From IMG/VR virus record IMGVR_UViG_3300046170_000450, positions 22,912 to 86,911 of that record: 64,000 bases of DNA; one strand, written 5' to 3'. The translations under genes and the position numbers were made by a program. Under the pieces are notes generated by a model. That model ran no database searches. It saw nothing but the letters and a program-made list of their open reading frames with translations, and was not told the DNA's origin. How positions within the stretch are numbered: position 1 is the first letter of the stretch; the number at the start of each line of letters is the position of its first letter. This stretch comes from a virus. Positions 6,524-21,076 of the stretch are shown piece by piece.

Positions 6524-7456
6524 ATGATTACTAAAACTATGTTCAAAAACCTAATCGGTCAAGACGAGGTAAAGCGTCAGCTTTCCTTTTACGCTAAAGC
6601 ACAAAATTCTACTGGAGTCGCACCATTTCTTATGTTGAGTGGGGCAAAGGGCTTGGGTAAGACAGAATTCGCCAAGGAGTATGCTTCCAACCTCAAGAAC
6701 AAGGATGGCAGTCAACGCCCATTCCTTGAGATCAACTGCTCCACTATTAAGAATGCTAATGCTTTCTTTGAGCAAATCTTCTTGCCTATCGTGATGCATA
6801 ACGAGATTACCATCCTATTGGACGAGGCACACATGCTTCCCAAGGATTTGGTTAATGCCTTCCTTACTGTATTCAACACAGAGAAGAGCAACTTCAAAGA
6901 GTATCATCATGGTGAACAGATTTTTGCTTTTGATTTTGCCCAACAGAATTTTATCTTCGCTACTACTGAGATGGATAAGTTGTTTGCTCCCTTCAAGGAT
7001 CGCCTCACTATTGTGGACTTCAAGCCCTACACAGTTGACGAGCTATCTGAAATTATTGATTTGGTTTGTGGAGAGATCGAGTTTGAAGATGGGCTTCTGC
7101 AAGACATCGCTGAGACTACAAGGGGCAACGCTCGTTCAGCAGTCAAGCGTTCCAAAGAGATCATGCTCTACTGCGAGTCTGTGAATGACAAGGATTATTC
7201 CAAGAAGGATTGGGAGAAGATGTCTCACACCTTGGGCATCAAGCCTCTTGGGTTGTCCAACATTGAGATTGAGATTCTCAGCATCCTCAAGGATCGTGGC
7301 AACTGCTCGCTTCAGATGCTATCAGCCGTCACAGGCATGTCTCGCACAGCCATCCAGAAAGAAGCAGAACTCTATCTGCTCAAGCGAGGTCTGATGAAGA
7401 TCGATGGTCAACGTGAGATAAGTGGAAAGGGTATGAATATACTACAAAAAATTTAG
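6524..7456 (+). CDS. ruvB: RuvB-like Holliday junction branch-migration AAA+ ATPase
   Basis: LIGQ, Walker A GAKGLGKT, Walker B LLDEAH, FATT, PFKDRL, RGNAR and a C-terminal winged helix (GLSNIE...E.YLLKRGL...GQR); 310 aa. Confidence 0.8.
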   Translation: MITKTMFKNLIGQDEVKRQLSFYAKAQNSTGVAPFLMLSGAKGLGKTEFAKEYASNLKNKDGSQRPFLEINCSTIKNANAFFEQIFLPIVMHNEITILLDEAHMLPKDLVNAFLTVFNTEKSNFKEYHHGEQIFAFDFAQQNFIFATTEMDKLFAPFKDRLTIVDFKPYTVDELSEIIDLVCGEIEFEDGLLQDIAETTRGNARSAVKRSKEIMLYCESVNDKDYSKKDWEKMSHTLGIKPLGLSNIEIEILSILKDRGNCSLQMLSAVTGMSRTAIQKEAELYLLKRGLMKIDGQREISGKGMNILQKI

Positions 7457-7480
7457 TATTAGTTATCATAAATGAGAATT

Positions 7481-7512
7481 CGGTAGGGTGTGAAAGCCCT
7501 GCCGATTTTTTT
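7481..7512 (+). terminator. intrinsic terminator after ruvB-like gene
   Basis: CGGTAGGG-loop-CCCTGCCG stem followed by a T run. Confidence 0.75.
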
Positions 7513-7629: not shown

Positions 7630-7708
7630 CATAAGTTGTTGAATATCAAGGGTTTGCGGGATCGCGGGGGCCCCAGCCCCGCAAGTCATTGACTTACAGG
7701 GACTTATG
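7630..7708. repeat. 79-bp double-palindrome element, copy 1
   Basis: CATAAGTTGTTGA-ATA-TCAAGGGTTTGCG / 21-bp GC-rich spacer / CGCAAGTCATTGA-CTT-ACAGGGACTTATG. Confidence 0.95.
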
Positions 7709-7711
7709 GGA

Positions 7712-7930
7712 TCAGTAGTCTGGTTCGTCAGGCAGGTGATCAAAGTAGTTGCAGGGGTCACGAAACCCAACATCTGCATCAGGGTAGGCAGCTTGAGCCT
7801 CCTCAATGGTGTCGAAGTTATCGACGAAGCGTTTGCAGGTTTGACCCGCAAGCACTGAAGACTCAGGGTATTCCCCGAACTCATAGACGGAGAAGCCCCC
7901 GCCTTTCCCATTTTCTATTGTTTTATCCAT
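7712..7930 (-). CDS. small hypothetical protein (leaderless)
   Basis: 72 aa ORF; TTGACA-N16-CATACT-N7-ATG upstream; stop 3 nt from element copy 1. Confidence 0.7.
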   Translation of the reverse strand: MDKTIENGKGGGFSVYEFGEYPESSVLAGQTCKRFVDNFDTIEEAQAAYPDADVGFRDPCNYFDHLPDEPDY

Positions 7931-7991
7931 AACTAACAGTATGGTTATTTTTTTGTGGTTGTCAATAGATTTTTTAAAATTTATTTAAATT

Positions 7992-8070
7992 TGTAAGTCG
8001 TTCTATATCAAGGAGTTGCGCGTCGGGGTGGGCCCCAGCCCCGCAAGTGCCTGATAGTCAAGCACTTACG
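7992..8070. repeat. 79-bp double-palindrome element, copy 2
   Basis: TGTAAGTCGTTCT-ATA-TCAAGGAGTTGCG / 21 bp / CGCAAGTGCCTGA-TAG-TCAAGCACTTACG. Confidence 0.95.
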
Positions 8071-8073
8071 AAT

Positions 8074-8250
8074 TTAATCGTCGTGGATTAAATGCGGGCG
8101 CGATTTATACCAAGCCCTGATCATTGCAGAAGTCCAATTCTTGGGCTCGCTTTCAAGCCAAGAGCGCGGCTTCTTTTCGTAAAGCTCAATCTCTTTAGCC
8201 ACACGAATTTTTTTCTCTTGTTCCGTTTCTTTTTTAAAGGGTAGTTTCAT
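8074..8250 (-). CDS. small hypothetical protein (58 aa)
   Basis: Hand translation MKLPFKKETEQEKKIRVAKE...PHLIHDD*; stop 3 nt from element copy 2. Confidence 0.55.
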   Translation of the reverse strand: MKLPFKKETEQEKKIRVAKEIELYEKKPRSWLESEPKNWTSAMIRAWYKSRPHLIHDD

Positions 8251-8612
8251 TTTAGTCTAATGGTTTTTTGTGTTTGGTTTTTCGGTTGTATTTCGATCTG
8301 TCAAAAAAAGGGCGGGAGGGCAAAAGCCCTTGCCCCTTGCGAACACTTTTCAAGATGTTCCGAAGATTAAGTTTTGGAGGAATTGATTTTGCCATTTGCG
8401 GGAGTCCTGTTCGGGTGTCCTATTTTCAAGGGTCGTATTAAAGCGCGAGAACTCGTCTTGCAAGTCGGCTTCGGTTGTGGGCAATTGCCCAATTTGGTCG
8501 GTTGGATTTTTTTGTTCACAGATTTTTTTGATTAGGTTATATCGTTCAGTATGATTCATGATTGAGGGTTATTATTAGTAGAATTAAGAGGGTTAGAACT
8601 ATTATCATTTTG

Positions 8613-9320
8613 TTAGCCTATAACAAAACCTGTTTCGTCCTTCTTGGCAAGTCCTTTTTGCACAAGTCCTACAATTTTATTTTTACCATCCAAGAAACGC
8701 AAGTCAGTTTCATCGCCGTTAACAACTTTAACAGACTTCCAAGACTTTGGAAACTCATTGCGAAAGACTGCCGCGACATTTCCGCCAAGCTTGAGAACCA
8801 AGTCAACCAAGTTGTCATTGCATTCACTGCGCGAAAAAGTAAGATGGTAGTTGCTTGGCATTTTACCTTTGAGATATTTTTGCATACGAGGAAAAGACTT
8901 GGTATAATCGTAGAATTGAACATCTGGATACATTTCCATAAGCGAAAGCTTTTTTCCGTCCGATTCAACCTTTATGCTTTCCCAAGGCAAGTCACTTGTA
9001 AGATTAAGACGGAAGCAAGGCTTCATATCTTTTTTTGCGGAAAGCTTAACAGCGTTGCCAATCTCTTTAGCAAGTTGCCAAGTAAAAGCATTTTTATCGG
9101 CAAAGAATTTTTGTGTTTTTGCAATGCGAGATTTTTGAACATTCGACATCGCGCCACGTCCAGCGGTGTTAAGACAAGCGGCGGCGCATCCAGCAGAAGC
9201 GTGAGCGCAAACATTTTTGCCAGCTAAGTTAAAAGGCGCAAGGTGCAGACCAAAAGTAGTCCAGCCAAGTTTTTCGCCTTTGATTGTTTTCGAGTTTCCT
9301 GAGTTTAGTAGTTTAGTCAT
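8613..9320 (-). CDS. GP88-like Cys-rich phage protein
   Basis: NSKT.K...LHLAP...NVC..AS.GC.AACLNTAGRG...RLN.TSD..WE...FYDYTK...YHLTFS motifs; leaderless TTGACT-N17-GATAAT-N7-ATG. Confidence 0.7.
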   Translation of the reverse strand: MTKLLNSGNSKTIKGEKLGWTTFGLHLAPFNLAGKNVCAHASAGCAAACLNTAGRGAMSNVQKSRIAKTQKFFADKNAFTWQLAKEIGNAVKLSAKKDMKPCFRLNLTSDLPWESIKVESDGKKLSLMEMYPDVQFYDYTKSFPRMQKYLKGKMPSNYHLTFSRSECNDNLVDLVLKLGGNVAAVFRNEFPKSWKSVKVVNGDETDLRFLDGKNKIVGLVQKGLAKKDETGFVIG

Positions 9321-9436
9321 AAAAGGTATTATCTTATTTTTTATTAGTTAAGTCAAGGGATTTTCTAACAAAATTTAAAAAAACTTTTTTAAAAAAAGAC
9401 TTGACAGCCGAGCGAAGAGCTAGGTAAAAAAAGTTT

Positions 9437-9515
9437 CGTAAGTCGTTGAATACCAAGGACTTACGCGTCGCGGGGGGCCGCGGCCCCGCAAGTCGTTGAT
9501 TATCAAGCACTTATG
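9437..9515. repeat. 79-bp double-palindrome element, copy 3
   Basis: CGTAAGTCGTTGA-ATA-CCAAGGACTTACG / 21 bp / CGCAAGTCGTTGA-TTA-TCAAGCACTTATG. Confidence 0.95.
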
Positions 9516-9571
9516 AATGTCAAGTAAAAAAGAAAAAGCCCCGCCCTTTCGGGCGAGGCGGTGAGGCTAGG

Positions 9572-10357
9572 CTAGGAAGCGTTTAAAACCAGCTCGCTTT
9601 GCGGAGCTTTCGCCCCTGCGTAGGTGTCGAGGACACTATACAGCGAGTTGGAGCGATTCGCCACGTTGAGCGAGTTGCCGCGCCACACGTTCGTGAAGGC
9701 GTTTTGAAGCGACCAAAGGTCACGCCCCTCGAAATTCTCATGCTCTGGCTTGTGCCATTGTCCGAAGATGTCGGCAATTTGAGTTTTGCCACACGCACCA
9801 GCTTGGAAGCCGCGCAAGATAAGATCATGCGCCGTGCGGTCATCAATCTCGCAAGACTTGTAAGAGTCAATGCGATTGTCGGAAGTAGTCCAAGAATCCA
9901 TCAACTGCCCAATCGCACGAGAAATGATTTGCGGTAAGTCGCGCATGATGTGAGTAGTATGACGGCGACCAAGCACAATCTCATTAGAGAAGATCAGATT
10001 AGAGCAAACGAAAGGTGCGTCACCTGCCGAGATGCCTGCACGGAACGCTTTGTCGTGCGAGTTGCGGAGGCACATGACTGTGCCAACGTCATCCCCATGC
10101 TTGCGACCTACGCCGCTAACTTGGAAAAGACCAAAGTAGCGTTGCCCGTAGCGGTGCAAAGCATGATGCTCTTGCACAATGTCAAGCGAAGGGTTGTTGT
10201 CGATAGCCGAGCGAAACTCAGAAACCAAAGCATCGTGAGCAACTGGAGTCCAGCGATCAGAAGCCTCTGGAGTTTTCACAGCTTTGACTTCATCAAAGTC
10301 GCATTGCTTTGATTCGCAAACATTAAGGTTGAGGAAGTTTTCGTTGATAGTAACCAT
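9572..10357 (-). CDS. DUF932/DUF945-family protein
   Basis: LRNSHDK......AG...FVCSN....RHT and LWSL.NAFT motifs. Confidence 0.75.
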   Translation of the reverse strand: MVTINENFLNLNVCESKQCDFDEVKAVKTPEASDRWTPVAHDALVSEFRSAIDNNPSLDIVQEHHALHRYGQRYFGLFQVSGVGRKHGDDVGTVMCLRNSHDKAFRAGISAGDAPFVCSNLIFSNEIVLGRRHTTHIMRDLPQIISRAIGQLMDSWTTSDNRIDSYKSCEIDDRTAHDLILRGFQAGACGKTQIADIFGQWHKPEHENFEGRDLWSLQNAFTNVWRGNSLNVANRSNSLYSVLDTYAGAKAPQSELVLNAS

Positions 10358-10504
10358 AGTATTAGTATTTAGTATTATTATTTAATTGTGAGATTACATC
10401 TTATAAGAAAAGTGGTGTGGTGTCAAGCGTTTATCGAAATAAAAATGAAATATTTTTTGTTTTTAAACTGGCATGGATCTTGAGCCTAGGAGCAGTCAAG
10501 GTTC

Positions 10505-10584
10505 CGTAAGTCGTTGTTTATCAAGGACTTGCGGGCGCGGGGGGGCCGCAGTCCACGCAAGCCGTTGAATATCAACAACTTATG
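10505..10584. repeat. double-palindrome element, copy 4 (80 bp, 22-bp spacer)
   Basis: CGTAAGTCGTTGT-TTA-TCAAGGACTTGCG / 22 bp with G run / CGCAAGCCGTTGA-ATA-TCAACAACTTATG. Confidence 0.95.
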
Positions 10585-10943
10585 AGACTAGCCTTTATCA
10601 TTGTAGGTGTCACTTCCACAGAGCCGACTTTGACGGGATAGCGATTAGGGTTAGCCACATAGAAAAATCTGTGCGATTGGTAAGGGTTATATTTTACCAA
10701 CTCAACGGGAGTTTTCTTTGGCTGCTCAACTCTTTCGCCAATGATGAAAGCATGAACGTTTTTTCTTTTCTGTTCCAAGACTCTTCTACGTCCTGCTTGC
10801 GAGACTTCAAAAGAAGCATTGTTCAAAAAGATTTGCTGAACGTGATCTGTAACACGCCAACCTTTTCCCTCGACCCATGATTGAACCGAAAGGCATTTTT
10901 TGTTGAGGTTGCGATAGACTCTGACTTTGTTTTTGTTTACCAT
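10572..10943 (-). CDS. conserved phage hypothetical protein
   Basis: VYRNLNK...SVQ...F.VSQAGR.RVL..KRKNVHAF..G...YNPY pattern; stop codon inside element copy 4. Confidence 0.7.
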   Translation of the reverse strand: MVNKNKVRVYRNLNKKCLSVQSWVEGKGWRVTDHVQQIFLNNASFEVSQAGRRRVLEQKRKNVHAFIIGERVEQPKKTPVELVKYNPYQSHRFFYVANPNRYPVKVGSVEVTPTMIKASLISC

Positions 10944-11117
10944 GCTGTGCTTTGTATTTCTTTTCTGTGTTCTTCGTAGGTTTCGATGTACTCCTGCAAG
11001 TCGCCAAGTGTTTCAAACCTAGCTAGTTTTTCTTCGTCTTCCATGCACTCTACCACAATGTCTCCACCTTCTTCGTAGTGTTCGTAACAGTATTCATTTA
11101 TTTGTTCGATTGTCATA

Positions 11118-11459
11118 TTATAGTTCCTCCCATCCGACTGATTTACACATTAAGGTTGTTGGGTGTCCGTTAGAATCACGGATCTTAACGACATCGCCAA
11201 CGCTTGTCGAGTGAAAAGTTTCCTTGTCCGAGCAGTTTTCCCACAGAGCCAAAAGAATTTTTTCGTGCGCTTTGGTTATAAGCTCAATCGGTGCGTTGGT
11301 TACGTGAAACAAAAGCTCAGCAAGCTTTGACGGAATGTGTGGATAATCGATGTGTTCTGCATTCAGTCGAACAGAGAAAACGCATTTTCGAGCGACTTCC
11401 CATTTCTGAACAAAAGGTTCATCTTCAGAGCGGTGTAGTGATAAGGTTATTGTTTTCAT
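11118..11459 (-). CDS. YodL-like domain protein
   Basis: C-terminal HSTSVGDVVKI...C.SVGWEEL resembles the YodL HSLSVGDVV...DSFGF motif. Confidence 0.5.
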   Translation of the reverse strand: MKTITLSLHRSEDEPFVQKWEVARKCVFSVRLNAEHIDYPHIPSKLAELLFHVTNAPIELITKAHEKILLALWENCSDKETFHSTSVGDVVKIRDSNGHPTTLMCKSVGWEEL

Positions 11460-11497
11460 ATTAGTATAATGTATTATTTTTTGTGATTAGTCAAGCA

Positions 11498-11788
11498 TTA
11501 CTTTGCATAAGACGCATCGTAACCATTTTCTTCTAAGATTTGAATAATTGACGGAGATAGAGCAAAAACTCCATCATAGTCAACCAACTCTTTGCCCTCA
11601 AACCAAAGACCTCCTTCGGCATACCATTCTCCTCCTCCTGTTTTTTCATCGTACATTTCAAACGAGCCATAGTTTTTGTTTGGCTGTACATGCACGGATA
11701 TATTCATCTGCACTCCATTTTCTTCACGGATTGTTCCGAATGAGTTTTCGAGGGCGAGGTCTTCAGTAGTTGTTTTTGTGATGTTCAT
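11498..11788 (-). CDS. hypothetical protein
   Basis: 96 aa ORF with its own sigma70-like promoter; EGGLWFEGKELVDYDGVF motif. Confidence 0.65.
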   Translation of the reverse strand: MNITKTTTEDLALENSFGTIREENGVQMNISVHVQPNKNYGSFEMYDEKTGGGEWYAEGGLWFEGKELVDYDGVFALSPSIIQILEENGYDASYAK

Positions 11789-11859
11789 ATTAGTATAATG
11801 TATTATTTGATTCGGCGAGTCAACCCCTTTTTTAAAATTTATTTAAATTTATTTAAATT

Positions 11860-11938
11860 CGTAAGTTGTTGATTATCAAGCACTTGCGGGTCTGCACTGG
11901 CCCCCGCCGCGCAAGTCGTTGACCACCAAGGACTTACA
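11860..11938. repeat. 79-bp double-palindrome element, copy 5
   Basis: CGTAAGTTGTTGA-TTA-TCAAGCACTTGCG / 21 bp / CGCAAGTCGTTGA-CCA-CCAAGGACTTACA. Confidence 0.95.
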
Positions 11939-12049
11939 GAACTCTTAATCCATATAGCGAAAAGCCGCCTTACCCCAAACACACAAAGGGTAAGACGGCA
12001 CACACACGTTGCACACACTACAACAAAAGAATTCAAGCTGGCTTTAAAA

Positions 12050-12140
12050 TGGCAGAGAAGATGGGATTCGAACCCATGGAACCTTTTTGAGGTTCACCTC
12101 TTTAGCAAAGAAGCGCTTTCGACCGCTCAGCCACTTCTCT
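12050..12140 (-). tRNA. tRNA-Ser(GCT)
   Basis: Cloverleaf with long variable arm, anticodon loop TT-GCT-AA, GGTTCGAATCC T-arm, encoded CCA. Confidence 0.92.
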
Positions 12141-12220
12141 AGAAATTTAAGCCGCCTCGCCCTAACCGCAAGATAGTCACAAGACGAGACGGCACACACA
12201 CATGTTACAACAACAAAAGG

Positions 12221-12472
12221 TTAGACAAGTTTAATTTTTTCGATTCTGTGCTTATAGAAAGAACGGATGCCGCTATGCTTCGCGCCAGTGGCGTAAGAGT
12301 AGGTATTGAACATATCGCCCAAGTCTTCAATGAAGTTCATGTCAATGACATAAGAGCCGACAGTTTCATCAGACTTTTTCTTGTAGGTGATTTGAGCCAT
12401 ATTATTCTTAGCGAAAGCGCGACGAACAGCAAGGCGGGTTTTTTGGATTGGATTTAGTTTTAGGTTTTTCAT
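12221..12472 (-). CDS. WYL-like (SH3-fold) small protein
   Basis: ITYKKK...GIRSFYKHRIEKIKLV resembles the WYL-domain Y...R.F..DRI..I signature. Confidence 0.45.
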   Translation of the reverse strand: MKNLKLNPIQKTRLAVRRAFAKNNMAQITYKKKSDETVGSYVIDMNFIEDLGDMFNTYSYATGAKHSGIRSFYKHRIEKIKLV

Positions 12473-12533
12473 GTTTTCTTTTCTCCGTTTTGGATTTTCG
12501 ATTGTTAAGATTATATCTTAGCAGATTTTTATG

Positions 12534-12836
12534 TTATGTCAATACTTTTTTAGGAAGTTTTGCGATTTTTTCTAACAAGTCATTAGCAGAGTCTACATTA
12601 AGGAAGCCTGCGACATCGTCTGTAATTTCTGGGTGTTTGGCAATGCATCCATTCTCATCCAGCAATGCAAGCTCTAAGCCGTAAGAAGAATCGTGTAGGA
12701 CTACAGAAGCTCCATAGCCATTAGGAAACTCAAAAATCTTTTGCCAACCAAAAAGTTCTTTACGTTCGGTTAATGTCATAGTGTGATGAGAGGTGGATGA
12801 GACTTTGAATATTTGTTGTATGGTGTCTTTGTTCAT
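12534..12836 (-). CDS. conserved phage hypothetical protein
   Basis: FPNGYGASVV...SYG.ELA.L.......ITDDV.GFL pattern; start uncertain. Confidence 0.6.
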   Translation of the reverse strand: MNKDTIQQIFKVSSTSHHTMTLTERKELFGWQKIFEFPNGYGASVVLHDSSYGLELALLDENGCIAKHPEITDDVAGFLNVDSANDLLEKIAKLPKKVLT

Positions 12837-13130
12837 AAGGCGTATAATATTATTATTTGTTTTGGTTGTCAAGGTTTTGTTTGAAGTTTCTTCTCCACCT
12901 CGCAAGACCAAGCATTCCTATGCGCTTGAAGGTCTCCCAATTTGGCTTGGGGTCTGACAGTTCTAGCCATATTTTCATTCTTCGTTTGGGATCTATATTC
13001 ACACCTAATAGTATACCAAACCGAATCGAAATAGCAAGCAAATAAATAGCAAATCGAACACTTTTTTACGGCAAATAGTGTAAAGTATTGATAGTCAAGG
13101 ACTTCGGGAACAAAAAAAACTTACAGGTTC

Positions 13131-13209
13131 TGTAAGTTGCTGACTATCAAAGACTTGCGGGTCGGGGCGGGCCCTGGCCTCGCAAGTCGTTGAGAAACAA
13201 GGACTTACA
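13131..13209. repeat. 79-bp double-palindrome element, copy 6 (extra degenerate half-site at 13079-13107)
   Basis: TGTAAGTTGCTGA-CTA-TCAAAGACTTGCG / 21 bp / CGCAAGTCGTTGA-GAA-ACAAGGACTTACA. Confidence 0.95.
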
Positions 13210-13399
13210 CAGTCCCAACGTGCTCCCCGTCGCGCTCGATCGCCCAGCCCTCGTAGAGGTCGATATGCCTCACGTCACCACGCCCAACAGTAGGGCAGTA
13301 GATCATGGCGAGTTGCCCGCAAGAATAGGTGAACATCACCTGCACAGTGCGAGCGTGGTTGCGAGTCGGGCGGAGGAGATCGTCTTTTTTGATTATCAT
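13205..13399 (-). CDS. small hypothetical protein (leaderless)
   Basis: TTGACA-N16-TAGACT-N6-ATG; TAA stop supplied by element copy 6. Confidence 0.65.
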   Translation of the reverse strand: MIIKKDDLLRPTRNHARTVQVMFTYSCGQLAMIYCPTVGRGDVRHIDLYEGWAIERDGEHVGTV

Positions 13400-13470
13400 G
13401 ACTACAGTCTAACAAAAAAAATCGTTCTGTCAACTGTTTTTTTAAAAAAAATTAAAAAAAATTTAGATTA

Positions 13471-13549
13471 CATAAGTTATTGATCACCAAGTACTTGCGC
13501 CGCTCACGCCGCCCCCGCCCCGCAAGTCGTTGACTATCAAGGACTTATG
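13471..13549. repeat. 79-bp double-palindrome element, copy 7
   Basis: CATAAGTTATTGA-TCA-CCAAGTACTTGCG / 21 bp / CGCAAGTCGTTGA-CTA-TCAAGGACTTATG. Confidence 0.95.
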
Positions 13550-13743
13550 AGTTCCTCTTCTCTCTCTTCGCGGACTAGGTCAAAGACCTCGGCTAGGGTC
13601 TTCACCTCACCCGTTTCGCCGTTGGTGAGGGTTTCCTTGTTGCCACAAGGCTCGCAGAATTCGAGCCAGTCGCTACCGAGAACGAGGGTGTTGGTACCGC
13701 CCATAGGGCGGCGAGTGTCGCAGAAACAGCAATGATCAGCCAT
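13537..13743 (-). CDS. small zinc-finger-like protein
   Basis: CCFC...FCEPC; TGA stop inside element copy 7. Confidence 0.6.
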   Translation of the reverse strand: MADHCCFCDTRRPMGGTNTLVLGSDWLEFCEPCGNKETLTNGETGEVKTLAEVFDLVREEREEELISP

Positions 13744-13763
13744 AATTTTTTGTGTGGTTAGGG

Positions 13764-13958
13764 TTAGCGGAAGTCAGCGTTGTGCATGAGTTCCTGTTGG
13801 AAAAGTCGCTCTTGGCGTTGAGCCTCGCCACGCTCGCGCTCGGATTGCTCGCGAAGCATTGCAGTTTCAAACTCGGCGAACTCAGCCTCGGACAAGTCAG
13901 CCCAAGGGTCGAAGGAAGCAGGAGTGGCGGAAGGAGTGGATGTATTTTTGATTGTCAT
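13764..13958 (-). CDS. small hypothetical protein (leaderless)
   Basis: TTGACA-N16-TATTCT-N7-ATG upstream. Confidence 0.6.
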   Translation of the reverse strand: MTIKNTSTPSATPASFDPWADLSEAEFAEFETAMLREQSERERGEAQRQERLFQQELMHNADFR

Positions 13959-14012
13959 AATTAAAAGAATAAGAAAAAAGGTTAGGCTGTCAAGGCTTTT
14001 GCGAAAAAAAGA

Positions 14013-14252
14013 TTAGAAATCTGACATTCTTTCTTCGCGTTCCATCGCGTCCCAAGCCTCGTCGTCGAGTTGCTTTTGAGAAGGGACAGGAAGCGGAGCG
14101 ACCTCGTCGAGGCGAGAGACGGGAACCCACTGTTCGCCGCCATCTTCATCCAAGACCCAAGCGAGACCCATCTTGACGTCACCGACAAAGACAGGGATGG
14201 AAAGATCGAGGAGGGCTTCTGTGCCAGATTTGATTTGTGTTGTAGTTATCAT
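14013..14252 (-). CDS. small acidic hypothetical protein (leaderless)
   Basis: TTGACT-N17-TACAAT-N6-ATG; resembles 17903-18133 (V.D.DG.E..V....L). Confidence 0.65.
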   Translation of the reverse strand: MITTTQIKSGTEALLDLSIPVFVGDVKMGLAWVLDEDGGEQWVPVSRLDEVAPLPVPSQKQLDDEAWDAMEREERMSDF

Positions 14253-14377
14253 ACGAGTATTGTATCAGAGAAAATCGGAAAAGTCAACCCCTAAACGCAT
14301 CTTTTTTTGCTTTTTTTTAACTTTTTTTTCGTGCGGCAGATTGGCACGGCAATTGACACGAGCGCAGTTCGGGGTTT

Positions 14378-14456
14378 CGTAAGTCGTTGTATATCAAGCA
14401 CTTGCGCGGCGGGGCGGGCCCCCGACCCGTAAGTCGTTGACTATCAGTAACTTACA
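14378..14456. repeat. 79-bp double-palindrome element, copy 8
   Basis: CGTAAGTCGTTGT-ATA-TCAAGCACTTGCG / 21 bp / CGTAAGTCGTTGA-CTA-TCAGTAACTTACA. Confidence 0.95.
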
Positions 14457-14880
14457 GATGCTTTGAGACCTTTGTCCAATAAATTTCTAGATTTTTTTGC
14501 TTTTGGTCGCTCTTTGGATTTGCAACACGCTTCCAAGCTGATCCGCCCCCGTTCCATATAAAAGCAAGATGTTTTGCGTTTAACTTTTCACCATTGCGTT
14601 TGATATACTTTTCATAGTGACGAAAGATTCCGATTGCGATATTGTGAGAAGTCAAGCGGTTTGACATTTGCTGATGTTTTACATTCGTGCCGTAGATACG
14701 ATTATAGTCGTCCAACATGATTGGTCTGATCTGAAGAGAGCCTAACGCTTTTTCGCTTTCGTTATAAGCAGAAGGATTGCAATTGCTTTCCACTTTTTCT
14801 AAAGCAATAATTAAATCAGTTAATGTTGCACCTTGCGCGATTGATGCGCAGATGGCGAATATTAGTATTAGTTTTTTCAT
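14452..14880 (-). CDS. secreted lysozyme-like / lytic transglycosylase (SLT/destabilase-like) protein
   Basis: Signal peptide MKKLILIFAICASIAQGA, catalytic-Glu motif VES..NP.A, G.LQI, WNGG; TAA stop supplied by element copy 8. Confidence 0.7.
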   Translation of the reverse strand: MKKLILIFAICASIAQGATLTDLIIALEKVESNCNPSAYNESEKALGSLQIRPIMLDDYNRIYGTNVKHQQMSNRLTSHNIAIGIFRHYEKYIKRNGEKLNAKHLAFIWNGGGSAWKRVANPKSDQKQKNLEIYWTKVSKHL

Positions 14881-14925
14881 AGTGTTTTTTTAAAAAACTT
14901 TCGATTTCGTTTTGAGGATGTAGGC

Positions 14926-15135
14926 TCATACAAGAAAAGTAACGTTTATCGGTTTTCCTTCTGGGTGCATTTCAGATATCCCCCTATAGTGTAAGGGAAT
15001 GTCTTCTACATAGGTCGATGCCCCGTGGTATTTTGTGCGCACGTAGCACTTAGCGTTTTGCGGCATTTCTTTTAGCTTCGCGATCACCTCCGCAACTGTA
15101 GGTGCGTCCCCGTATTTCCTGTATTTAGTTTCCAT
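14926..15135 (-). CDS. small hypothetical protein
   Basis: 69 aa ORF, TV.E.IAKL.EMP..A motif. Confidence 0.6.
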   Translation of the reverse strand: METKYRKYGDAPTVAEVIAKLKEMPQNAKCYVRTKYHGASTYVEDIPLHYRGISEMHPEGKPINVTFLV

Positions 15136-15421
15136 TATTTAAAACATCGCCTTTGATACTGCCTTTGACACTTCCCCAGATATTGCCCCTAACATCTCTG
15201 TAGATATTGCCGCCGACATAGCCTCCAATAGAGCCTTTTACATTGCCTCTGATACTGCCTTCAATAGTACCCCTAACATCGCTCCATATATTACCTTCTA
15301 CAAAGCCATAAACATAGCCGTGGATATCGCCTTCGACATTCAAAACCCTAAGGTTTCCCTCGGAGTCGCGTTTGAACGAAACGAGTTTTTTGATTTCTTC
15401 TAGTGTTGGTTCTTTTTTCAT
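15125..15421 (-). CDS. small beta-helix repeat protein (G-x-[IV]-x tetrapeptide repeats)
   Basis: GDIH-GYVY-GFVE-GNIW-SDVR-GTIE-GSIR-GNVK-GSIG-GYVG-GNIY repeats. Confidence 0.65.
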   Translation of the reverse strand: MKKEPTLEEIKKLVSFKRDSEGNLRVLNVEGDIHGYVYGFVEGNIWSDVRGTIEGSIRGNVKGSIGGYVGGNIYRDVRGNIWGSVKGSIKGDVLNNGN

Positions 15422-15654
15422 AGTGTTTTTTTAAAAAACTTTCGATTTCGTTTTGAGACACAGAGAACCCCGTCAGAGTATCCAATGTCCGTGGCGTATC
15501 CAGATTTTATAAATTTGCGCTCTAATTCTTGGAGCCGTAAGTGATAGTGGCACTCTTCGTAGTCTGTTGGCACATATATGCGAACGACCATTTCTAGTGG
15601 TTCGTCTGGCGTCATTCCCCACCCGATATGTTTTCTTTGAAATGTTAGCTTCAT
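15418..15654 (-). CDS. hypothetical protein
   Basis: 78 aa ORF downstream of a TTGACA-N16-CATACT promoter. Confidence 0.55.
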   Translation of the reverse strand: MKLTFQRKHIGWGMTPDEPLEMVVRIYVPTDYEECHYHLRLQELERKFIKSGYATDIGYSDGVLCVSKRNRKFFKKTL

Positions 15655-15678
15655 AGTTTATATTGGTTTGTAGTATGG

Positions 15679-15858
15679 TTATTTTTGTTCGATTGTCAAG
15701 CGATTTTGGAAAGTTTTTTCCATTAATTTTTGCTCGGTGCGACCATAGATTGCGCCCCAATTCTTGGCAGGGATCGCAGGGTAGAGTTTGCGTTGAGTGT
15801 TGTAGCTCGCTTGCGTGAGGTGGTCGATTACCGAATCAATTTCTTTATTTGTTATCAT
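15679..15858 (-). CDS. 59 aa hypothetical protein, paralog A
   Basis: Hand translation MITNKEIDSVIDHLTQASYNTQRKLYP...LTIEQK*; leaderless promoter; paralog at 17660-17839. Confidence 0.75.
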   Translation of the reverse strand: MITNKEIDSVIDHLTQASYNTQRKLYPAIPAKNWGAIYGRTEQKLMEKTFQNRLTIEQK

Positions 15859-15927
15859 GCTTACAGTATGGGGATAAAAACGAGAAAGTCAACCCTTTTT
15901 TTAATTTTTTTAACTTTTTTTCAGTTG

Positions 15928-16006
15928 CGTAAGTCATTCACTATCAAGCACTTGCGTGGCGCGGGCGGCCCTGGCCCCGCAAGTCGTTGATATTCAAGGA
16001 CTTACA
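15928..16006. repeat. 79-bp double-palindrome element, copy 9
   Basis: CGTAAGTCATTCA-CTA-TCAAGCACTTGCG / 21 bp / CGCAAGTCGTTGA-TAT-TCAAGGACTTACA. Confidence 0.95.
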
Positions 16007-16139
16007 TGATTGCGTTTATCGCAACCCCTGAGACGGTGTCAAACATTTTTTGAAACCAGCCAATTTTGTTTGCGATGAAGTAAGTGCAAGCCGCGATTGT
16101 CAAGCAAATTGCAGTTGTTTTGTCAATTATTATTTTCAT
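16002..16139 (-). CDS. 45 aa hydrophobic peptide
   Basis: Hand translation MKIIIDKTTAICLTIAACTYFIANKIGWFQKMFDTVSGVAINAIM*; TAA supplied by element copy 9. Confidence 0.5.
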   Translation of the reverse strand: MKIIIDKTTAICLTIAACTYFIANKIGWFQKMFDTVSGVAINAIM

Positions 16140-16453
16140 TTTATTTTATTGCGTTGTCGATTTCCTCAAAGCGATGCCAAGAGCTTTCTTTGATTTGTTG
16201 AGCTTTGTCGTCGAGCTTAAGCCCGACGAACATTGCTAACCCAAGAATTAATCCAAAAAGAACAAGAGCTAAAATTTCCCAAATTTTCATTTTTTTTATT
16301 CTCCGATTGGGTAGCCTTGCTCTATCCAAGCTTGGCGTTGTAAGTCTTCTCTTTCAGTCTCTCGGTCGAGCGACATGATTAGAAAAGCAGTAAGGACTCC
16401 ACACATTACAAGTAGGCAGAGGGCGAGGGTTTTTGTTTCGTTGTCCATTAGTA

Positions 16454-16711
16454 TTATTTTGATTGGTGGTATTCAGCCATATATTGAACGCTTCTTTCAA
16501 GCTTGTCAAGTATATCTTGAGGGTTAATTCCTTCAGCGATCTTGAGGTTGTTAAGAATCTCTACGTCGCTAGCACGACCGCCGAGTTCACGACCGAAGCC
16601 ATAGCGACCATCTGTAAAAGAACAGCGACCATAAGTGATATCAGTCAAAACCATAGGCTTGTTGTCAACGATGTAAGCCTTACCGAGTGTGAGTGTGTTT
16701 AGTGTTTCCAT
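16454..16711 (-). CDS. hypothetical protein (leaderless)
   Basis: TTGACA-N16-CATACT-N7-ATG. Confidence 0.65.
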   Translation of the reverse strand: METLNTLTLGKAYIVDNKPMVLTDITYGRCSFTDGRYGFGRELGGRASDVEILNNLKIAEGINPQDILDKLERSVQYMAEYHQSK

Positions 16712-17017
16712 GATTAACAGTATGTTTATTTTTGTGTGATTGTCAAGCGATTTTGGAAAGTTTTTTGAGAATTATTAAAGATCCAAAAGAAGCGTTTCCC
16801 AAGTATCAAGCTCGGCGGCGTGGAACTCTGCCTTGTCAAGATCATTCTTTTCAAGTGCTTTTTCGTAACGAGCCTTGTGCAGGGCAATTTTCTTTTGTAT
16901 GGATTCTTTTTTAAGCATGATTACAGTATGGTTAAAAGTAGTGGAAAGTCAAGCGGTTTTTTTAAAAAAAGTAAAAAAAAGTTTTTTTAAATTGGCACGG
17001 AGTTTGAACAGCGGTTT

Positions 17018-17096
17018 CGTAAGTGCTTGATTACCAAGGACTTGCGCGGCGCGGGGGGCCGCAGGCTCGCAAGTCGCTGATATTCAACGACTTACG
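17018..17096. repeat. 79-bp double-palindrome element, copy 10
   Basis: CGTAAGTGCTTGA-TTA-CCAAGGACTTGCG / 21 bp / CGCAAGTCGCTGA-TAT-TCAACGACTTACG. Confidence 0.95.
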
Positions 17097-17103
17097 AAGT
17101 TGG

Positions 17104-17286
17104 CTAAGGGTTCTGGTCGACGACTTCGTCGCCGCACCAGATCATCCAATCTTGACAAGGGCGGGCGAACTCGTAAGCCGCATCAAGACCTCGGCGAGAC
17201 TTCGGAAAGTCGCGAACTTGTTCAAGCATTTCGCCTGAGTTAGAAAAATCTGCGGTAGTGACTGTGTATTTTTTATTGTTTATCAT
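17104..17286 (-). CDS. small hypothetical protein (leaderless)
   Basis: TTGACA-N16-TATTGT-N7-ATG; stop 7 nt from element copy 10. Confidence 0.6.
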   Translation of the reverse strand: MINNKKYTVTTADFSNSGEMLEQVRDFPKSRRGLDAAYEFARPCQDWMIWCGDEVVDQNP

Positions 17287-17659
17287 GTATACTACAATAG
17301 GGATTCAAGCGGTGATGTCAAGCTTATCGTAAACTTTTTTTAATTTTTTTTAACGATTCTTTAGGCGAACCATCACATCTTTATTTTCTTCAAGGGTCTG
17401 AGCGAAAAGAGCGTCGCAAAACACTCGCCATTCTTCTTCAGTGATGATGCCATCGTTGAGAGCGAACCACATCTTTTGATATTCTGCGCGTGTAATTTTA
17501 TCTTTCATAATTATTTGCATTCGGATTTTTCGAGACGGACTAAGCCGCGAACTTCTAAGCAAGAAGCGATGAAGTCAGCCCAGTCATAATCCATTTCATC
17601 GAGGGCTGCCCAGTATTGGCGAGAGAAGTGCAGTTGTTCATTCATGTTTTATAGTATGG

Positions 17660-17839
17660 TTATTTTTGTGCGATTGTCAACTGTTTTTGAAAATTATTTT
17701 CAAGTTTTTTAGCCACGCCCTCGCCGTAGACTTTGCCCCAGCGACCAGCTTTGATCTCTGGGTAGAGTTTGCGTTGCGTGTTGTAGCTCACTTGCGTGAG
17801 GTGGTCAATGACGTTGTCGATTTCTTTATTGCTTATCAT
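17660..17839 (-). CDS. 59 aa hypothetical protein, paralog B
   Basis: Hand translation MISNKEIDNVIDHLTQVSYNTQRKLYP...LTIAQK*; TTGACA-N16-CATACT-N7-ATG. Confidence 0.75.
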   Translation of the reverse strand: MISNKEIDNVIDHLTQVSYNTQRKLYPEIKAGRWGKVYGEGVAKKLENNFQKQLTIAQK

Positions 17840-17902
17840 GTCTTACAGTATGGCTAAAAGTTGGGGCTTGTCAAGCTTATCGCAAAGTTTTTTTAATTTT
17901 TT

Positions 17903-18133
17903 TTAGTAGCGACCTATGCGAGCTAGAGATTTTTCTTCGCGAAGAAAGCTCTCTTCTTTTTCTTCTTCGCTCTCGATCAACTCGTCTTGTTCCAAGTCGC
18001 CGTATTTGACGAAGAACTCGCGACCGTCATCATCGGAAACAAGCACTTGTGGATAAAAGCCGTATGCGTCAATGACGAAGACAGTTGAGTTGTCAGTTGT
18101 GAGGAGAGCGGATTTGTTTTCTATTATGTTCAT
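17903..18133 (-). CDS. small acidic hypothetical protein (leaderless), first gene of the minus-strand small-gene block
   Basis: TTGACA-N17-CATTCT-N7-ATG. Confidence 0.65.
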   Translation of the reverse strand: MNIIENKSALLTTDNSTVFVIDAYGFYPQVLVSDDDGREFFVKYGDLEQDELIESEEEKEESFLREEKSLARIGRY

Positions 18134-18337
18134 GCTTTATAGAATGTAAAATTTCGCACACGATGTCAAGCCCTCAGATAAAAAAAACAATTTTTTTTTT
18201 GCGATTACCCTACCCTATTGTTAAACAAATGCGTCCAGAGAAACACAGAACAAGCGGGGGGGAGGGTTTTCTAAAAGTCTCAACACATTTTCACCATAGC
18301 AAATTACTTAAGTGCGAAAAAAACCCAGACCCTATTT

Positions 18338-19576: not shown

Positions 19577-20091
19577 GTTTGTTTTTTGTGCCAGTTCAAA
19601 AAAGTGTCAATATCCGCTAATTGATTATATTCGATTTCATATCTACTTTGATCATAAGTGAAATTATTGGTTTTGGTCCCAGCTTTCTTTAAGTCAGCTA
19701 TTTTGAAAAACTTTTTTTTGGATATAATGCCGCATATCCAAACAACGCTAAAATCATTCTTGACTCTACTGAAAATATAGTAATCGGTGTCTCTATTTTT
19801 TTGCTCTTCATATAGGGTGGCACTATAATTAGACATTGGTTTGCTATTGCATCCTTGAGCTTTGGAATCTATTGTGTCTGAGTTTTTTAAAACAAAATCA
19901 ACAGAATAACCTTCGGCATAAACTATATCTGCATAAGTATTGCTAATTGCTGCTTCAGCTAGATAACCAGTTATTCTTTGTCTTTGTTTGTTTGATCTGT
20001 GAGTGCCTGTATGTCCGAACATTTCATAGAATTTTTTATTTCTTTGATTTGCTTCATCAAGCATGAATTTTGTGACTTCAACTTCTACCAT
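19567..20091 (-). CDS. PD-(D/E)XK restriction-endonuclease-like protein inside the tRNA cluster
   Basis: G.LAE....D.....IDSK...DYYIF.RV....WICG..SK..F; TTGACT-N16-TAGTAT promoter supports ATG at 20091. Confidence 0.55.
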   Translation of the reverse strand: MVEVEVTKFMLDEANQRNKKFYEMFGHTGTHRSNKQRQRITGYLAEAAISNTYADIVYAEGYSVDFVLKNSDTIDSKAQGCNSKPMSNYSATLYEEQKNRDTDYYIFSRVKNDFSVVWICGIISKKKFFKIADLKKAGTKTNNFTYDQSRYEIEYNQLADIDTFLNWHKKQTLR

Positions 20092-20135
20092 GAGTGTGTA
20101 TACTATTAGCCCCAAAATAAAAGTCAAGCTAAAAA

Positions 20136-20210
20136 TGGTGGGCCCTGAGAATTACGATATCTCGACCTAACGATTATGAGTCGTTTGCTCTTCCTCTGAG
20201 CTAAAGGCCC
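20136..20210 (-). tRNA. tRNA-CAT, probably Ile2 (lysidine type); atypical T loop
   Basis: GGGCC acceptor and CGA-CTCATAA-TCG anticodon arm similar to bacterial Ile2; T loop reads ATCGTAA; CCA encoded. Confidence 0.75.
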
Positions 20211-20215
20211 TAAAA

Positions 20216-20730: not shown

Positions 20731-20734
20731 AAGA

Positions 20735-20811: not shown

Positions 20812-20817
20812 ATAAAA

Positions 20818-20892: not shown

Positions 20893-20899
20893 TTAAAGG

Positions 20900-20982: not shown

Positions 20983-20990
20983 AAAAAAAG

Positions 20991-21068: not shown

Positions 21069-21076
21069 ATAAAAAA

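What the first reader, a model, noticed from the sequence alone, without database searches (positions are those of the whole stretch)
7630..17096. Phage gene-cassette array partitioned by ten 79-80 bp double-palindrome sites
Seen: ten copies (starts 7630, 7992, 9437, 10505, 11860, 13131, 13471, 14378, 15928, 17018) share a rigid geometry. Each is a 29-bp palindrome (consensus CGTAAGTCGTTGA-N3-TCAAGGACTTGCG), a GC-rich spacer of 21 bp (22 in copy 4), then a second palindrome (CGCAAGTCGTTGA-N3-TCAAGGACTTAYR). Spacer and N3 sequences vary while their lengths do not, and the half-site centres are 50 bp apart. All copies have the same orientation and I saw none elsewhere in the window. They delimit 340-1550 bp units of one to several small minus-strand genes. 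In 8 of 10 cases the upstream gene's stop codon lies inside the element (10572, 13205, 13537, 14452, 16002) or within 7 nt of it (7712, 8074, 17104). The next promoter follows on the other side, except after copy 1, which ends the block. Known analogues are integron attC cassettes (stop codon overlapping the site), REP/REPIN doublets and T4-type PeSL promoter cassettes, but this sequence matches none of their consensuses as I know them. Inference: these are recombination or protein-binding sites that let the phage shuffle, capture or excise early host-takeover genes. No recombinase gene was recognised in this window.
Basis: partly seen in the sequence, partly recalled or inferred. Interest (0 to 1): 0.92.

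Follow-up and report, generated by a model that had tools for sequence, protein, structure and literature searches.

The report
Paired-palindrome boundary repeats between phage cassettes
Ten copies of a rigid 80-bp DNA unit separate the early-gene cassettes of an uncultured marine phage; they look like protein-binding boundary sites, and related phages have swapped cassettes at them.

Summary
Ten ~79-bp units (two 29-bp palindromes around an 86% G+C spacer) lie at the stated coordinates. The half-site pattern gives 33 hits against 0.06 expected, all inside 7633-17093.

The unit belongs to a family. A strict pattern found 19 loci in IMG/VR, each record holding one ~9-kb array. It found nothing in 50,697 deposited phages. 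This scan has already noted the family on other DNA.

Each unit abuts the stop codon of a minus-strand gene and is followed by a sigma70-type promoter. Arm pairing is no better within a unit than between units (z about 0). G-U does not exceed A-C. The same quarter-site persists in phages whose terminases are 24% identical. So I read conserved sequence and protein recognition, not a plain hairpin.

Relatives permute whole cassettes with breakpoints in the units. The crossover point varies, and no Tyr, Ser or HUH recombinase occurs in five records, one of them complete.

Sigma54-type boxes cluster beside the units: 20 of 21 lie within 120 bp.

Best reading: a protein-bound transcription-unit boundary that also serves as a homologous-recombination substrate, like PeSLs. 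Function is unproven.

The parts
17018..17096 (-). boundary unit E10 (two 29-bp palindromes plus a 21-bp GC spacer)
   Evidence: The stop of ORF 17104-17286(-) lies 7 nt away.
15928..16006 (-). boundary unit E9
   Evidence: The stop of ORF 16002-16139(-) lies inside the unit.
14378..14456 (-). boundary unit E8
   Evidence: The stop of ORF 14452-14880(-, SLT domain) lies inside the unit.
13471..13549 (-). boundary unit E7
   Evidence: The stop of ORF 13537-13743(-) lies inside the unit.
13131..13209 (-). boundary unit E6. A degenerate third palindrome at 13082-13104 and a canonical hairpin plus T8 at 13138-13118 follow it.
11860..11938 (-). boundary unit E5. It follows tRNA-Ser (12050-12140).
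   Evidence: The orthologous unit in L022 keeps both flanks.
10505..10584 (-). boundary unit E4 (22-bp spacer)
   Evidence: The stop of the gp82-like ORF 10572-10943(-) lies inside the unit.
9437..9515 (-). boundary unit E3. A canonical intrinsic terminator at 9559-9538(-) precedes it.
7992..8070 (-). boundary unit E2
   Evidence: The stop of ORF 8074-8250(-) lies 3 nt away.
7630..7708 (-). boundary unit E1, the last of the array. It faces a convergent plus-strand gene (6524-7456) and that gene's terminator (7480-7505).
16993..17007 (+). sigma54-type -24/-12 box (TGGCAC-N5-TTGA). It is antisense to the genes and points into E10 across a 10-bp gap.
   Evidence: 3 in the window against 0.36 expected
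14342..14356 (+). sigma54-type box pointing into E8 across a 21-bp gap
10469..10483 (+). sigma54-type box pointing into E4 across a 21-bp gap. It is kept beside the DUF932 cassette in L022 and L014.
7938..7965 (-). example of the sigma70-type promoter that follows each unit (TTGACA-16-CATACT, 26 bp after E2). The others start at 16952, 15892, 14287, 13433, 13037, 11823, 10426, 9356 and 7624.

Best explanation
Each unit is a protein-recognised boundary between early transcription units. Two 29-bp palindromes are each built from two copies of the quarter-site CGYAAGT-SS-TTGA. I infer that each palindrome binds a sequence-specific DNA-binding protein, probably as a dimer. The palindromes are held apart by a G+C-rich clamp of fixed length within any one genome. 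The complex sits directly after the last stop codon of a cassette and directly before the A/T-rich upstream region and promoter of the next cassette. I infer that it limits read-through, by roadblock or factor-assisted termination, and/or conditions the next promoter. Because ten or so near-identical copies lie in one orientation within 9 kb, they also serve as substrates for ordinary homologous recombination. That recombination deletes, inserts and permutes whole cassettes, as proposed for PeSL elements of T4-type phages.

Shown: the anatomy, position and family; sequence conservation without covariation; cassette permutation with breakpoints in the units; absence of the usual recombinases; and clustering of sigma54-type boxes beside the units.

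Inferred: that a protein binds, which protein it is (host factor or phage protein), and what binding does.
For: Position. The units abut or overlap the upstream stop in 8 of 10 cases here, and the same holds in the relatives' arrays. A sigma70-type promoter scoring at least 9 of 12 follows within 5-128 bp in 10/10 (window), 10/10 (L022), 8/8 (L023) and 7/7 (L025, where four are 12/12). The first cassettes of the array (17104-18300) have promoters but no unit upstream. The last unit, E1, has no cassette after it. That fits a 3'-end boundary better than a pure upstream activator site.

Sequence rather than structure. In 88 distinct units from 16 loci, Watson-Crick pairing between partner arms equals that between arms of different units of the same genome. 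This holds for all four possible pairings, with z from -0.42 to 0.63. On the sense strand G-U occurs 94 times and A-C 125 times. Arm positions 8-9 are mismatched in most units.

Deep conservation. G000 and G003 share only 9 ORFs by blastp, and their TerL is 24% identical, yet both carry the same quarter-site.

Geometry. The palindrome-to-palindrome distance is fixed within a genome but is 48, 49, 50, 51 or 53 bp in different lineages.

Protein neighbours. Of 21 sigma54-type boxes in 203 kb of arrays, 20 lie within 120 bp of a unit. The gaps are 10-11 or 21 bp, one helical turn apart, in four lineages.

Cellular use of the same site. The same single palindrome occurs 17 times (0 in the control) in the intergenic regions of one Verrucomicrobiota genome, G112. 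There it mostly lies 7-16 bp from a second conserved palindrome that is next to gene starts.

Recombination. Cassette order is swapped in L014 against the window, and in L015 against L003, and cassettes are relocated. The hybrid unit L014-3316 carries the upstream palindrome of window E2 and the spacer and downstream palindrome of E4. Of 128 homology-block ends, 39 fall in units against 11.5 +/- 3.9 for random placement (0 of 2000). Fourteen inter-genome unit pairs share one flank only, and the spacer follows either side. Spacers are homogenised within genomes.
Against: No binding protein has been identified. No HU/IHF, bEBP or RNase III family is encoded in the records searched.

Both strands are predicted to fold into one long segmented hairpin, at -27 to -46 kcal/mol with z from -1.9 to -6.8. 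An RNA or single-stranded DNA role is therefore not excluded. Concerted evolution could also hide covariation.

Many promoters in the array work without a unit, and E3 already has a canonical terminator just upstream, so the unit is not simply 'the' terminator.

Breakpoints are only about 1.6 times as frequent per unit as per ordinary gene end.

The chromosomal palindromes are sporadic. They are convincing in 1-2 of 301 Verrucomicrobiota genomes and in 0 of 40 family relatives of G112. G112 has about 55% G+C against 38% for the phage, so host identity is open.
Confidence: 0.45

Rival explanations
1. Enhancer or upstream activating sites. The two palindromes bind a host activator, either a bEBP-type protein or an architectural protein such as IHF. 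That activator switches on the promoter downstream of the unit. On this reading the boundary position is only a consequence of compact genomes.
For: In record G005, 11 canonical TGGCAC-N5-TTGC boxes all lie beside units. Six point away from a unit at gaps of 40-66 bp and are followed by ORFs, and four of these gaps are 59-60 bp. That puts the palindromes near -100 and -150, the classic enhancer distance as I recall it. All 10 units of the window hold at least one exact match to the recalled IHF consensus WATCAANNNNTTR: 15 of the window's 21 matches fall in the units, against 7.0 expected for the whole window. In G112 the single palindrome lies upstream of gene starts.
Against: In the window lineage the downstream promoters are near-consensus sigma70 promoters with A/T-rich upstream regions, and such promoters usually need no activator. 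About ten similar promoters in the same array have no unit. The first cassettes lack an upstream unit, and the last unit has no cassette to activate. The unit-to-promoter distance varies from 5 to 128 bp. The sigma54-type boxes of four lineages point INTO the unit and are antisense to the genes. The four 59-60-bp spacings in G005 belong to near-identical duplicated modules. No bEBP passes the family cut-off in five records.
Confidence: 0.2
2. RNA-level element. The transcribed unit folds into a long segmented hairpin. The hairpin terminates transcription without a U-tract, protects the 3' end of the mRNA, or is cut by RNase III as in the T7 early region.
For: The units sit at the 3' ends of genes. 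In 9 of 10 sense-strand folds the minimum-energy structure is one long hairpin with symmetric internal loops. None of the 16 listed metatranscriptome contig pieces spans a whole unit, whereas listed DNA contigs of run X1 span E2, E3, E4, E5, E9 and E10. This is weak, because 215 further pieces were not shown and contigs cannot show RNA ends.
Against: There is no covariation and no excess of G-U over A-C on the sense strand. The antisense strand folds equally well. A T-run lies close after the hairpin in only about 3-4 of 10 units, judged by eye; the terminator scan lists only 13138-13118 and 9559-9538. Primary sequence is kept between phages with 24% identical TerL, which a purely structural hairpin would not need. 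There is no Rfam family.
Confidence: 0.15
3. Dedicated site-specific recombination sites, an integron-like cassette system. The folded or duplex unit is the substrate of a recombinase that excises and inserts cassettes.
For: Cassettes are permuted, relocated and replaced with breakpoints in the units. Stop codons overlap the unit. The folded form has paired boxes separated by unpaired bases and a variable apical part, which superficially resembles attC as I recall it.
Against: No PF00589, PF00239 or PF01797 match occurs in 5 of 5 records, including a complete genome, while the control genomes gave hits. The crossover lies left of the spacer in some hybrids and right of it in others. Other gene ends break nearly as often. 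Here the sequence is conserved and the structure is not co-varying, the opposite of attC as I recall it. The cassettes carry their own promoters. A host-encoded or novel recombinase is not excluded.
Confidence: 0.1
4. Selfish miniature mobile element (MITE- or REPIN-like) that has spread through the early region.
For: There are many near-identical palindromic copies. Spacers are homogenised within genomes. The palindrome turns up sporadically in unrelated bacterial genomes.
Against: The copies are confined to one ~9-kb region in each of 4 full records. They always occupy the same position relative to genes. I saw no target-site duplication in the flanks (by eye). No Y1 transposase was found. 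Only 2 small MAG contigs hold the double unit in 596 billion bases of bacterial and archaeal genomes.
Confidence: 0.04

Closest known systems
PeSL (promoter-early stem-loop) composite terminator/promoter cassettes of T4-type phages (Arbiol et al. 2010, PMC2839356; Comeau et al. 2014, PMC4122927)
   Same: Both have the order stem-loop, then A/T-rich region, then sigma70-type early promoter, then small genes. Both are clustered in a hyperplastic early region. Insertions, deletions, replacements and displacements between relatives coincide with the repeats. In both cases recombination between repeats is the proposed cause. (PMC4122927 main text, parts 1-2 read.)
   Different: The PeSL stem-loops described there are short and simple (for example A3-4G3-loop-C3T3-4) and vary between phage pairs. 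Here the repeat is a rigid 75-85-bp double palindrome with conserved primary sequence across very divergent phages. It shows no covariation, has a G+C-rich spacer of fixed length, and has sigma54-type boxes beside it. The phages are unrelated long-tailed marine phages, not T4-type. Mini-circles were shown for PeSLs, according to PMC4122927, but have not been shown here.
Integron attC sites
   Same: Imperfect palindromes lie directly after cassette ORFs. Stop codons overlap the site. All copies share one orientation. Cassettes are reordered.
   Different: No integrase was found. Sequence is conserved rather than structure. The cassettes carry promoters. There is no fixed crossover point. The attC features used here are recalled, not taken from a call.
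Stoperators of cluster A mycobacteriophages (e.g. PMC9283540; abstract in search listing only)
   Same: Many copies of one protein-binding site are spread through intergenic gaps of early regions, and the sites are proposed to stop transcription elongation. Three cassette genes here belong to families first named in mycobacteriophage L5 or seen alongside them (gp82-like, GP88, DUF932).
   Different: Stoperators are single asymmetric 13-bp sites bound by a monomeric repressor of a temperate phage. Here the sites are paired 29-bp palindromes. No repressor or integrase was recognised, and the units are confined to one 9-kb array.
REP/BIME and REPIN elements of bacterial chromosomes
   Same: Extragenic palindromic doublets at the 3' ends of transcription units. 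Some classes carry IHF sites (recalled).
   Different: Those elements are dispersed genome-wide and are mobilised by RAYT transposases. Here there is a single array and no Y1 transposase.

Membership tests
PeSL-type composite boundary cassettes | Stem-loop placed just upstream of an A/T-rich region and a sigma70-type early promoter | tested here: met
   10 of 10 units are followed by a promoter-like site scoring at least 9 of 12
PeSL-type composite boundary cassettes | Clustered in a variable region, with indels, replacements and displacements between relatives coinciding with the repeats | tested here: met
PeSL-type composite boundary cassettes | Excision of the DNA between two repeats as mini-circles | not testable with these tools
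   One search gave only low-support joints in contigs (shorter side 22-35 letters). No raw reads of this phage were found in X21.
PeSL-type composite boundary cassettes | Short simple hairpin whose sequence varies between phage groups; T4-type myovirus | tested here: not met
   The unit is a 79-bp double palindrome kept across lineages. TerL is at most 28% identical to any deposited phage.
Integron attC / cassette system | Cognate tyrosine recombinase (IntI) encoded with the array | tested here: not met
   0 of 5 records, one of them complete. All 14 control genomes gave hits.
Integron attC / cassette system | Structure conserved while sequence varies (recalled) | tested here: not met
   conserved sequence, z about 0 for pairing
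Integron attC / cassette system | Single fixed crossover point | tested here: not met
   the spacer travels with either flank
Intrinsic (Rho-independent) terminator | G+C-rich hairpin followed at once by a U-tract | tested here: not met
   One search lists no unit as terminator-like. Only the small hairpin after E6 and the terminator before E3 qualify.
Sigma54 enhancer (bEBP upstream activating sites) | Paired inverted-repeat sites about 80-150 bp upstream of a -24/-12 promoter | tested here: inconclusive
   Met for 6 boxes in G005. Not met in the window, where the 3 boxes point into the unit and the gene promoters are of the sigma70 type.
Sigma54 enhancer (bEBP upstream activating sites) | A cognate AAA+ activator | tested here: not met
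   none above the cut-off in 5 records. A host activator cannot be tested.
IHF binding site | Match to WATCAANNNNTTR (consensus recalled) | tested here: met
   15 exact matches in the 10 units. Binding itself was not tested, and conservation extends beyond the consensus.
REP/REPIN | RAYT (Y1 HUH) transposase and genome-wide dispersal | tested here: not met
Rfam RNA families | Match at the gathering score | tested here: not met
   only 11 tRNA matches in the window

The most novel reading that the evidence does not exclude
The units are the cis-acting part of an integrase-free cassette system. A conserved double operator recruits a host nucleoprotein complex: an IHF-like bender and/or a sigma54 holoenzyme parked head-on beside it, in helical phase. 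That complex both insulates each early transcription unit and actively promotes exchange of promoter-bearing cassettes between co-infecting phages. This would be a phage counterpart of integrons, built on a hijacked host DNA-binding factor.
Probability: 0.15. Interest if true: 0.85.

Novelty: new variant of a known kind. Interest (0 to 1): 0.66.

Why it matters
Early regions of large lytic phages are where host-takeover and anti-defence genes turn over fastest. How such genes are packaged, insulated and exchanged is known in detail only for a few model phages. Here a rigid, sequence-conserved boundary unit is shared by marine phages that have almost no proteins in common, and whole promoter-bearing cassettes have been permuted at it. 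If a host factor binds it, the unit shows how unrelated phages converge on one host protein to organise early transcription, and it would give a handle on the unknown host. It also offers a portable boundary part for engineering. The link to sigma54-type boxes is unusual for phages and is testable.

Tried and rejected
Deposited phages. Megablast of the whole array and blastn of one unit found nothing in 50,697 records. TerL is at most 28% identical to any of them, so no cultured relative or annotation could be used.

Rfam. Only tRNAs matched.

Phage-encoded candidates. Tyr and Ser recombinases, Y1 transposase, HU/IHF, RNase III and the sigma54 activator family were searched. None passed a cut-off. 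One sub-threshold AAA+ match occurs in G001.

The gp82-like protein as the binder. It is the only array gene shared by all lineages. It has no solved relative and no Atlas lead. It has no homologue in G112, G119 or G107, which carry the palindrome, though that search had no positive control. I dropped it as unsupported.

Other ORFs shared between G000 and G003. I scanned 8 of the 9 against family libraries: TerL and the tape measure, the gp82-like protein, and the 288-aa, PhoH, 648-aa, 363-aa, 122-aa and 731-aa proteins. No DNA-binding domain appeared. The 731-aa protein has a sub-threshold GHKL ATPase hit.

Reads. X21 raw reads laid only on A/T-rich repeats. Joints such as 10587>17019 have 22-35 letters on the shorter side in single contigs at 90% likeness, and I do not count them. 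RNA contig depth per bin is uneven, but the tool warns that it is no measure of expression.

Host search. The double pattern hit only two small MAG contigs. These carry several units and look like mis-binned phage fragments. The single palindrome is enriched in G112 (17 hits against 0 in the control) and perhaps in G107 (6 against 0). The G119 hits examined (5 of its 7) lie in repetitive sequence that looks protein-coding by eye, so I rejected them. Forty relatives of G112 lack the enrichment.

Literature. Four searches found no description of this unit: palindromic repeats with early genes and shuffling, PeSL, stoperator, and sigma54 with phage. They cover only the open-access library. Supplementary files were not opened. 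Those of the PeSL papers may hold sequences that I did not compare.

Papers seen. For PMC4122927 I read the main text, parts 1-2 of 3. For PMC2839356, PMC9283540, PMC8744999 and PMC4591121 I saw the search listing only.

Complex prediction was not used, because there is no protein pair to test.

Full report
WHAT IS THERE.

The window is bases 22912-86911 of an 86.9-kb IMG/VR virus record estimated to be 64% complete. It encodes a terminase, a 1867-aa tape measure and 12 tRNAs. Runs that hold it are seawater metagenomes.

Each has a 29-bp palindrome, a spacer of 21 bp (22 bp in copy 4), and a second 29-bp palindrome. The half-site pattern gives 33 matches with up to 3 mismatches, all between 7633 and 17093. 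The expectation from shuffles is 0.06.

All genes of the region are on the minus strand. Eight of ten units overlap the stop codon of the upstream gene or lie within 7 nt of it. Every unit is followed, 5-93 bp further along the minus strand, by a sigma70-type promoter-like site.

About ten similar promoters in the same array have no unit. These include those of the first cassettes at 17104-18300. The last unit, E1, faces a convergent plus-strand gene and its terminator.

A FAMILY, NOT A ONE-OFF.

I scanned IMG/VR with a strict double-palindrome pattern that only 3 of this phage's own 10 units satisfy (derived). It returned 19 loci. Relaxed scanning shows paired units in all 19 of them, and arrays of two or more in 18.

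In the four full records that could be searched, the units are confined to one stretch of about 9 kb. One of those records is a complete 172,984-bp genome with terminal repeats.

The distance between palindromes is fixed within a record but differs among lineages: 48, 49, 50, 51 or 53 bp. Spacers are 86% G+C and are much more alike within a genome than between genomes.

The double pattern occurs in only two small MAG contigs among 596 billion bases of bacterial and archaeal genomes. These contigs carry several units and look like mis-binned phage pieces.

Nothing similar exists in 50,697 deposited phage records or in Rfam. Four literature searches found no description.

Two earlier follow-ups of this scan described the same family in other genomes and also named PeSLs as the closest known thing.

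SEQUENCE OR STRUCTURE?

Both strands are predicted to fold into a single long segmented hairpin: 9 of 10 units on the sense strand and 10 of 10 on the antisense strand. The energies are -27 to -46 kcal/mol, well below shuffles for most.

The pairing, however, is a by-product of four copies of one conserved quarter-site. I collected 88 distinct units from 16 loci. The number of Watson-Crick pairs between partner arms is no higher than between arms taken from different units of the same genome. This holds for both local and both long-range pairings, with z from -0.42 to 0.63.

Non-canonical pairs on the sense strand are G-U 94 times and A-C 125 times. There is therefore no sign of selection on an RNA of either strand. 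Arm positions 8-9 are mismatched in most units.

The most invariant positions are AA, TT, TCAA and TT-R. G000 and the complete genome G003 share only 9 ORFs by blastp, and their terminases are 24% identical, yet they carry the same quarter-site.

I conclude that the arms are recognised by sequence, most simply by a DNA-binding protein.

The lineage-specific spacing spans half a helical turn. That argues against a requirement for two dimers on one face of the helix. It fits two independent sites, or a spacer that only has to be G+C-rich.

RECOMBINATION.

Arrays of relatives are mosaics of the same gene families.

- The window has gp82-like | unit | DUF932 | unit | GP88. L014 has gp82-like | unit | GP88 | unit | DUF932. 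L017 has DUF932 before gp82-like.
- L015 and L003 carry two four-gene and three-gene cassettes in opposite order.
- A 64-aa cassette lies between E7 and E6 here, but is the last cassette in L022 and L011.
- The unit between GP88 and DUF932 in L014 is a hybrid. Its upstream palindrome matches window E2, and its spacer and downstream palindrome match window E4.

Of 128 ends of blastn homology blocks inside four arrays, 39 fall in units. Random placement gives 11.5 +/- 3.9, and 0 of 2000 placements reached 39.

Two facts argue against a dedicated site-specific system.

- First, ordinary gene ends without a unit also collect breaks: 0.77 per junction against 1.22 per unit.
- Second, there is no fixed crossover point. 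Among 14 inter-genome unit pairs that share one flank only, the spacer goes with the shared side in some pairs and not in others.

In addition, no tyrosine recombinase, serine recombinase or Y1 transposase is encoded in any of five records, one of them complete, while the control genomes gave hits.

This is the pattern described for PeSL elements of T4-type phages. Those are repeated composites of stem-loop, A/T-rich region and early promoter. Cassettes are gained, lost and displaced at them, by homologous or possibly site-specific exchange (PMC4122927, read).

SIGMA54-TYPE BOXES.

Three TGGCAY-N5-TTGA boxes lie on the plus strand 10-21 bp from E10, E8 and E4 and point into them. The expectation is 0.36.

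Across 203 kb of arrays from 15 records, 20 of 21 such boxes lie within 120 bp of a unit. By my own arithmetic, units plus 120-bp margins make up about 14% of that DNA.

In the window, L022, L014 and L024 the boxes always sit on the promoter side of the unit. They are antisense and point into the unit, at gaps of 10-11 or 21 bp. The box beside the DUF932 cassette keeps TGGCA and TTG in three phages while its N5 changes.

In record G005 there are 11 canonical TGGCAC-N5-TTGC boxes, all beside units. Five point into a unit at gaps of 13-15 bp. Six point away at 40-66 bp and are followed by ORFs.

So in at least one lineage sigma54-type promoters replace sigma70-type promoters behind the units, at enhancer-like distance. 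In others a sigma54-type box is parked head-on against the unit. I cannot tell whether this means activation from the unit, antisense transcription starting at its base, or a parked holoenzyme that adds to a roadblock.

No activator of the sigma54 family is encoded in the five records searched.

All ten units also contain at least one exact match to the recalled IHF consensus WATCAANNNNTTR: 15 matches lie in the units, against 7.0 expected in the whole window. Conservation extends beyond that consensus.

A CELLULAR ECHO.

One genome, G112, has 17 hits and 0 control hits. All are intergenic and spread over large contigs. In most, the palindrome lies 7-16 bp from a second conserved palindrome that abuts gene starts. 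The flanking genes include two polysaccharide pyruvyl transferases, two acyltransferase-3 proteins, a GT2 glycosyltransferase, a PEP-CTERM protein, a sulfatase and others.

G107 has 6 weaker hits. The G119 hits examined lie in repetitive sequence that looks protein-coding by eye, and I rejected them. Forty family relatives of G112 lack the enrichment.

So the palindrome does serve as a promoter-upstream site in at least one bacterium. That supports protein recognition. Its sporadic distribution, and G112's roughly 55% G+C, leave the host and the factor unidentified.

VERDICT.

The inference is half right.

The units are best read as protein-recognised boundaries of early transcription units (confidence 0.45). 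They double as homology for cassette shuffling. That makes them an elaborate, sequence-constrained variant of the PeSL idea in an unrelated, uncultured group of marine phages.

The rivals, in order, are:
- an enhancer or upstream activating site for a host activator (0.2);
- an RNA hairpin acting as terminator, processing site or stabiliser (0.15);
- a true site-specific cassette system with an unrecognised recombinase (0.1);
- a selfish miniature element (0.04).

What the bound factor is, and whether it stops or starts transcription, needs end-mapping and binding experiments.

Noticed in passing
window 10469-10483, 14342-14356, 16993-17007 (+); G005 (L027/L028) 14.1-26.0 kb: Sigma54-type -24/-12 boxes cluster beside the units. 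Record G005 has 11 canonical TGGCAC-N5-TTGC boxes in its array, several placed as gene promoters. This suggests sigma54-dependent early transcription in a phage.
   Followed up: partly
window 20900-20982 (-): ARAGORN calls a tRNA with a four-letter anticodon (ccat) and no amino-acid assignment inside the 11-gene tRNA cluster. Rfam scores it 48.5 bits as a tRNA.
   Followed up: no
window 18338-19465 (-): A 375-aa HNH / endonuclease VII-like gene lies between the tRNA cluster and the array. It is absent at this place in the relatives' arrays (a singleton), as expected of a homing endonuclease.
   Followed up: partly
window 8613-9320, 9572-10357, 10572-10943 (-): The three most widely shared cassette genes belong to GP88, DUF932 and the mycobacteriophage L5 gp82 family. 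The gp82-like gene is the only array gene found in all lineages, including G003 and G005.
   Followed up: partly
window 14872-14916 and 15413-15457: A 45-nt stretch is repeated with 100% identity at two gene starts inside one cassette (family D15). Several promoter-region repeat families (D5-D10) offer further recombination substrates.
   Followed up: no
L085 (contig 16319-17435, upstream of the window): The phage carries S-adenosylmethionine decarboxylase and spermidine synthase genes side by side. A PhoH-like gene lies at window 30074-30766.
   Followed up: no
L086 944-3139 (contig 19944-22139): A 731-aa protein is shared with G001 and G003 and has a sub-threshold GHKL (gyrase B / histidine kinase-type) ATPase hit. 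It lies about 8 kb from the array. A topoisomerase-like role was not examined.
   Followed up: no
G112 loci L060-L084: In one Verrucomicrobiota genome the single palindrome is paired with a second conserved palindrome (TRYGCATT-N3-4-AATGCWGTA). The pair lies next to the starts of many surface-polysaccharide genes, which looks like an undescribed regulon or repeat.
   Followed up: partly
window 21751-26476 (-): Four large minus-strand ORFs (332, 443, 360 and 415 aa) had no Pfam hit where tested (3 of the 4). The untested 443-aa one gave only weak Ig-like PHROG hits. I did not examine this.
   Followed up: no
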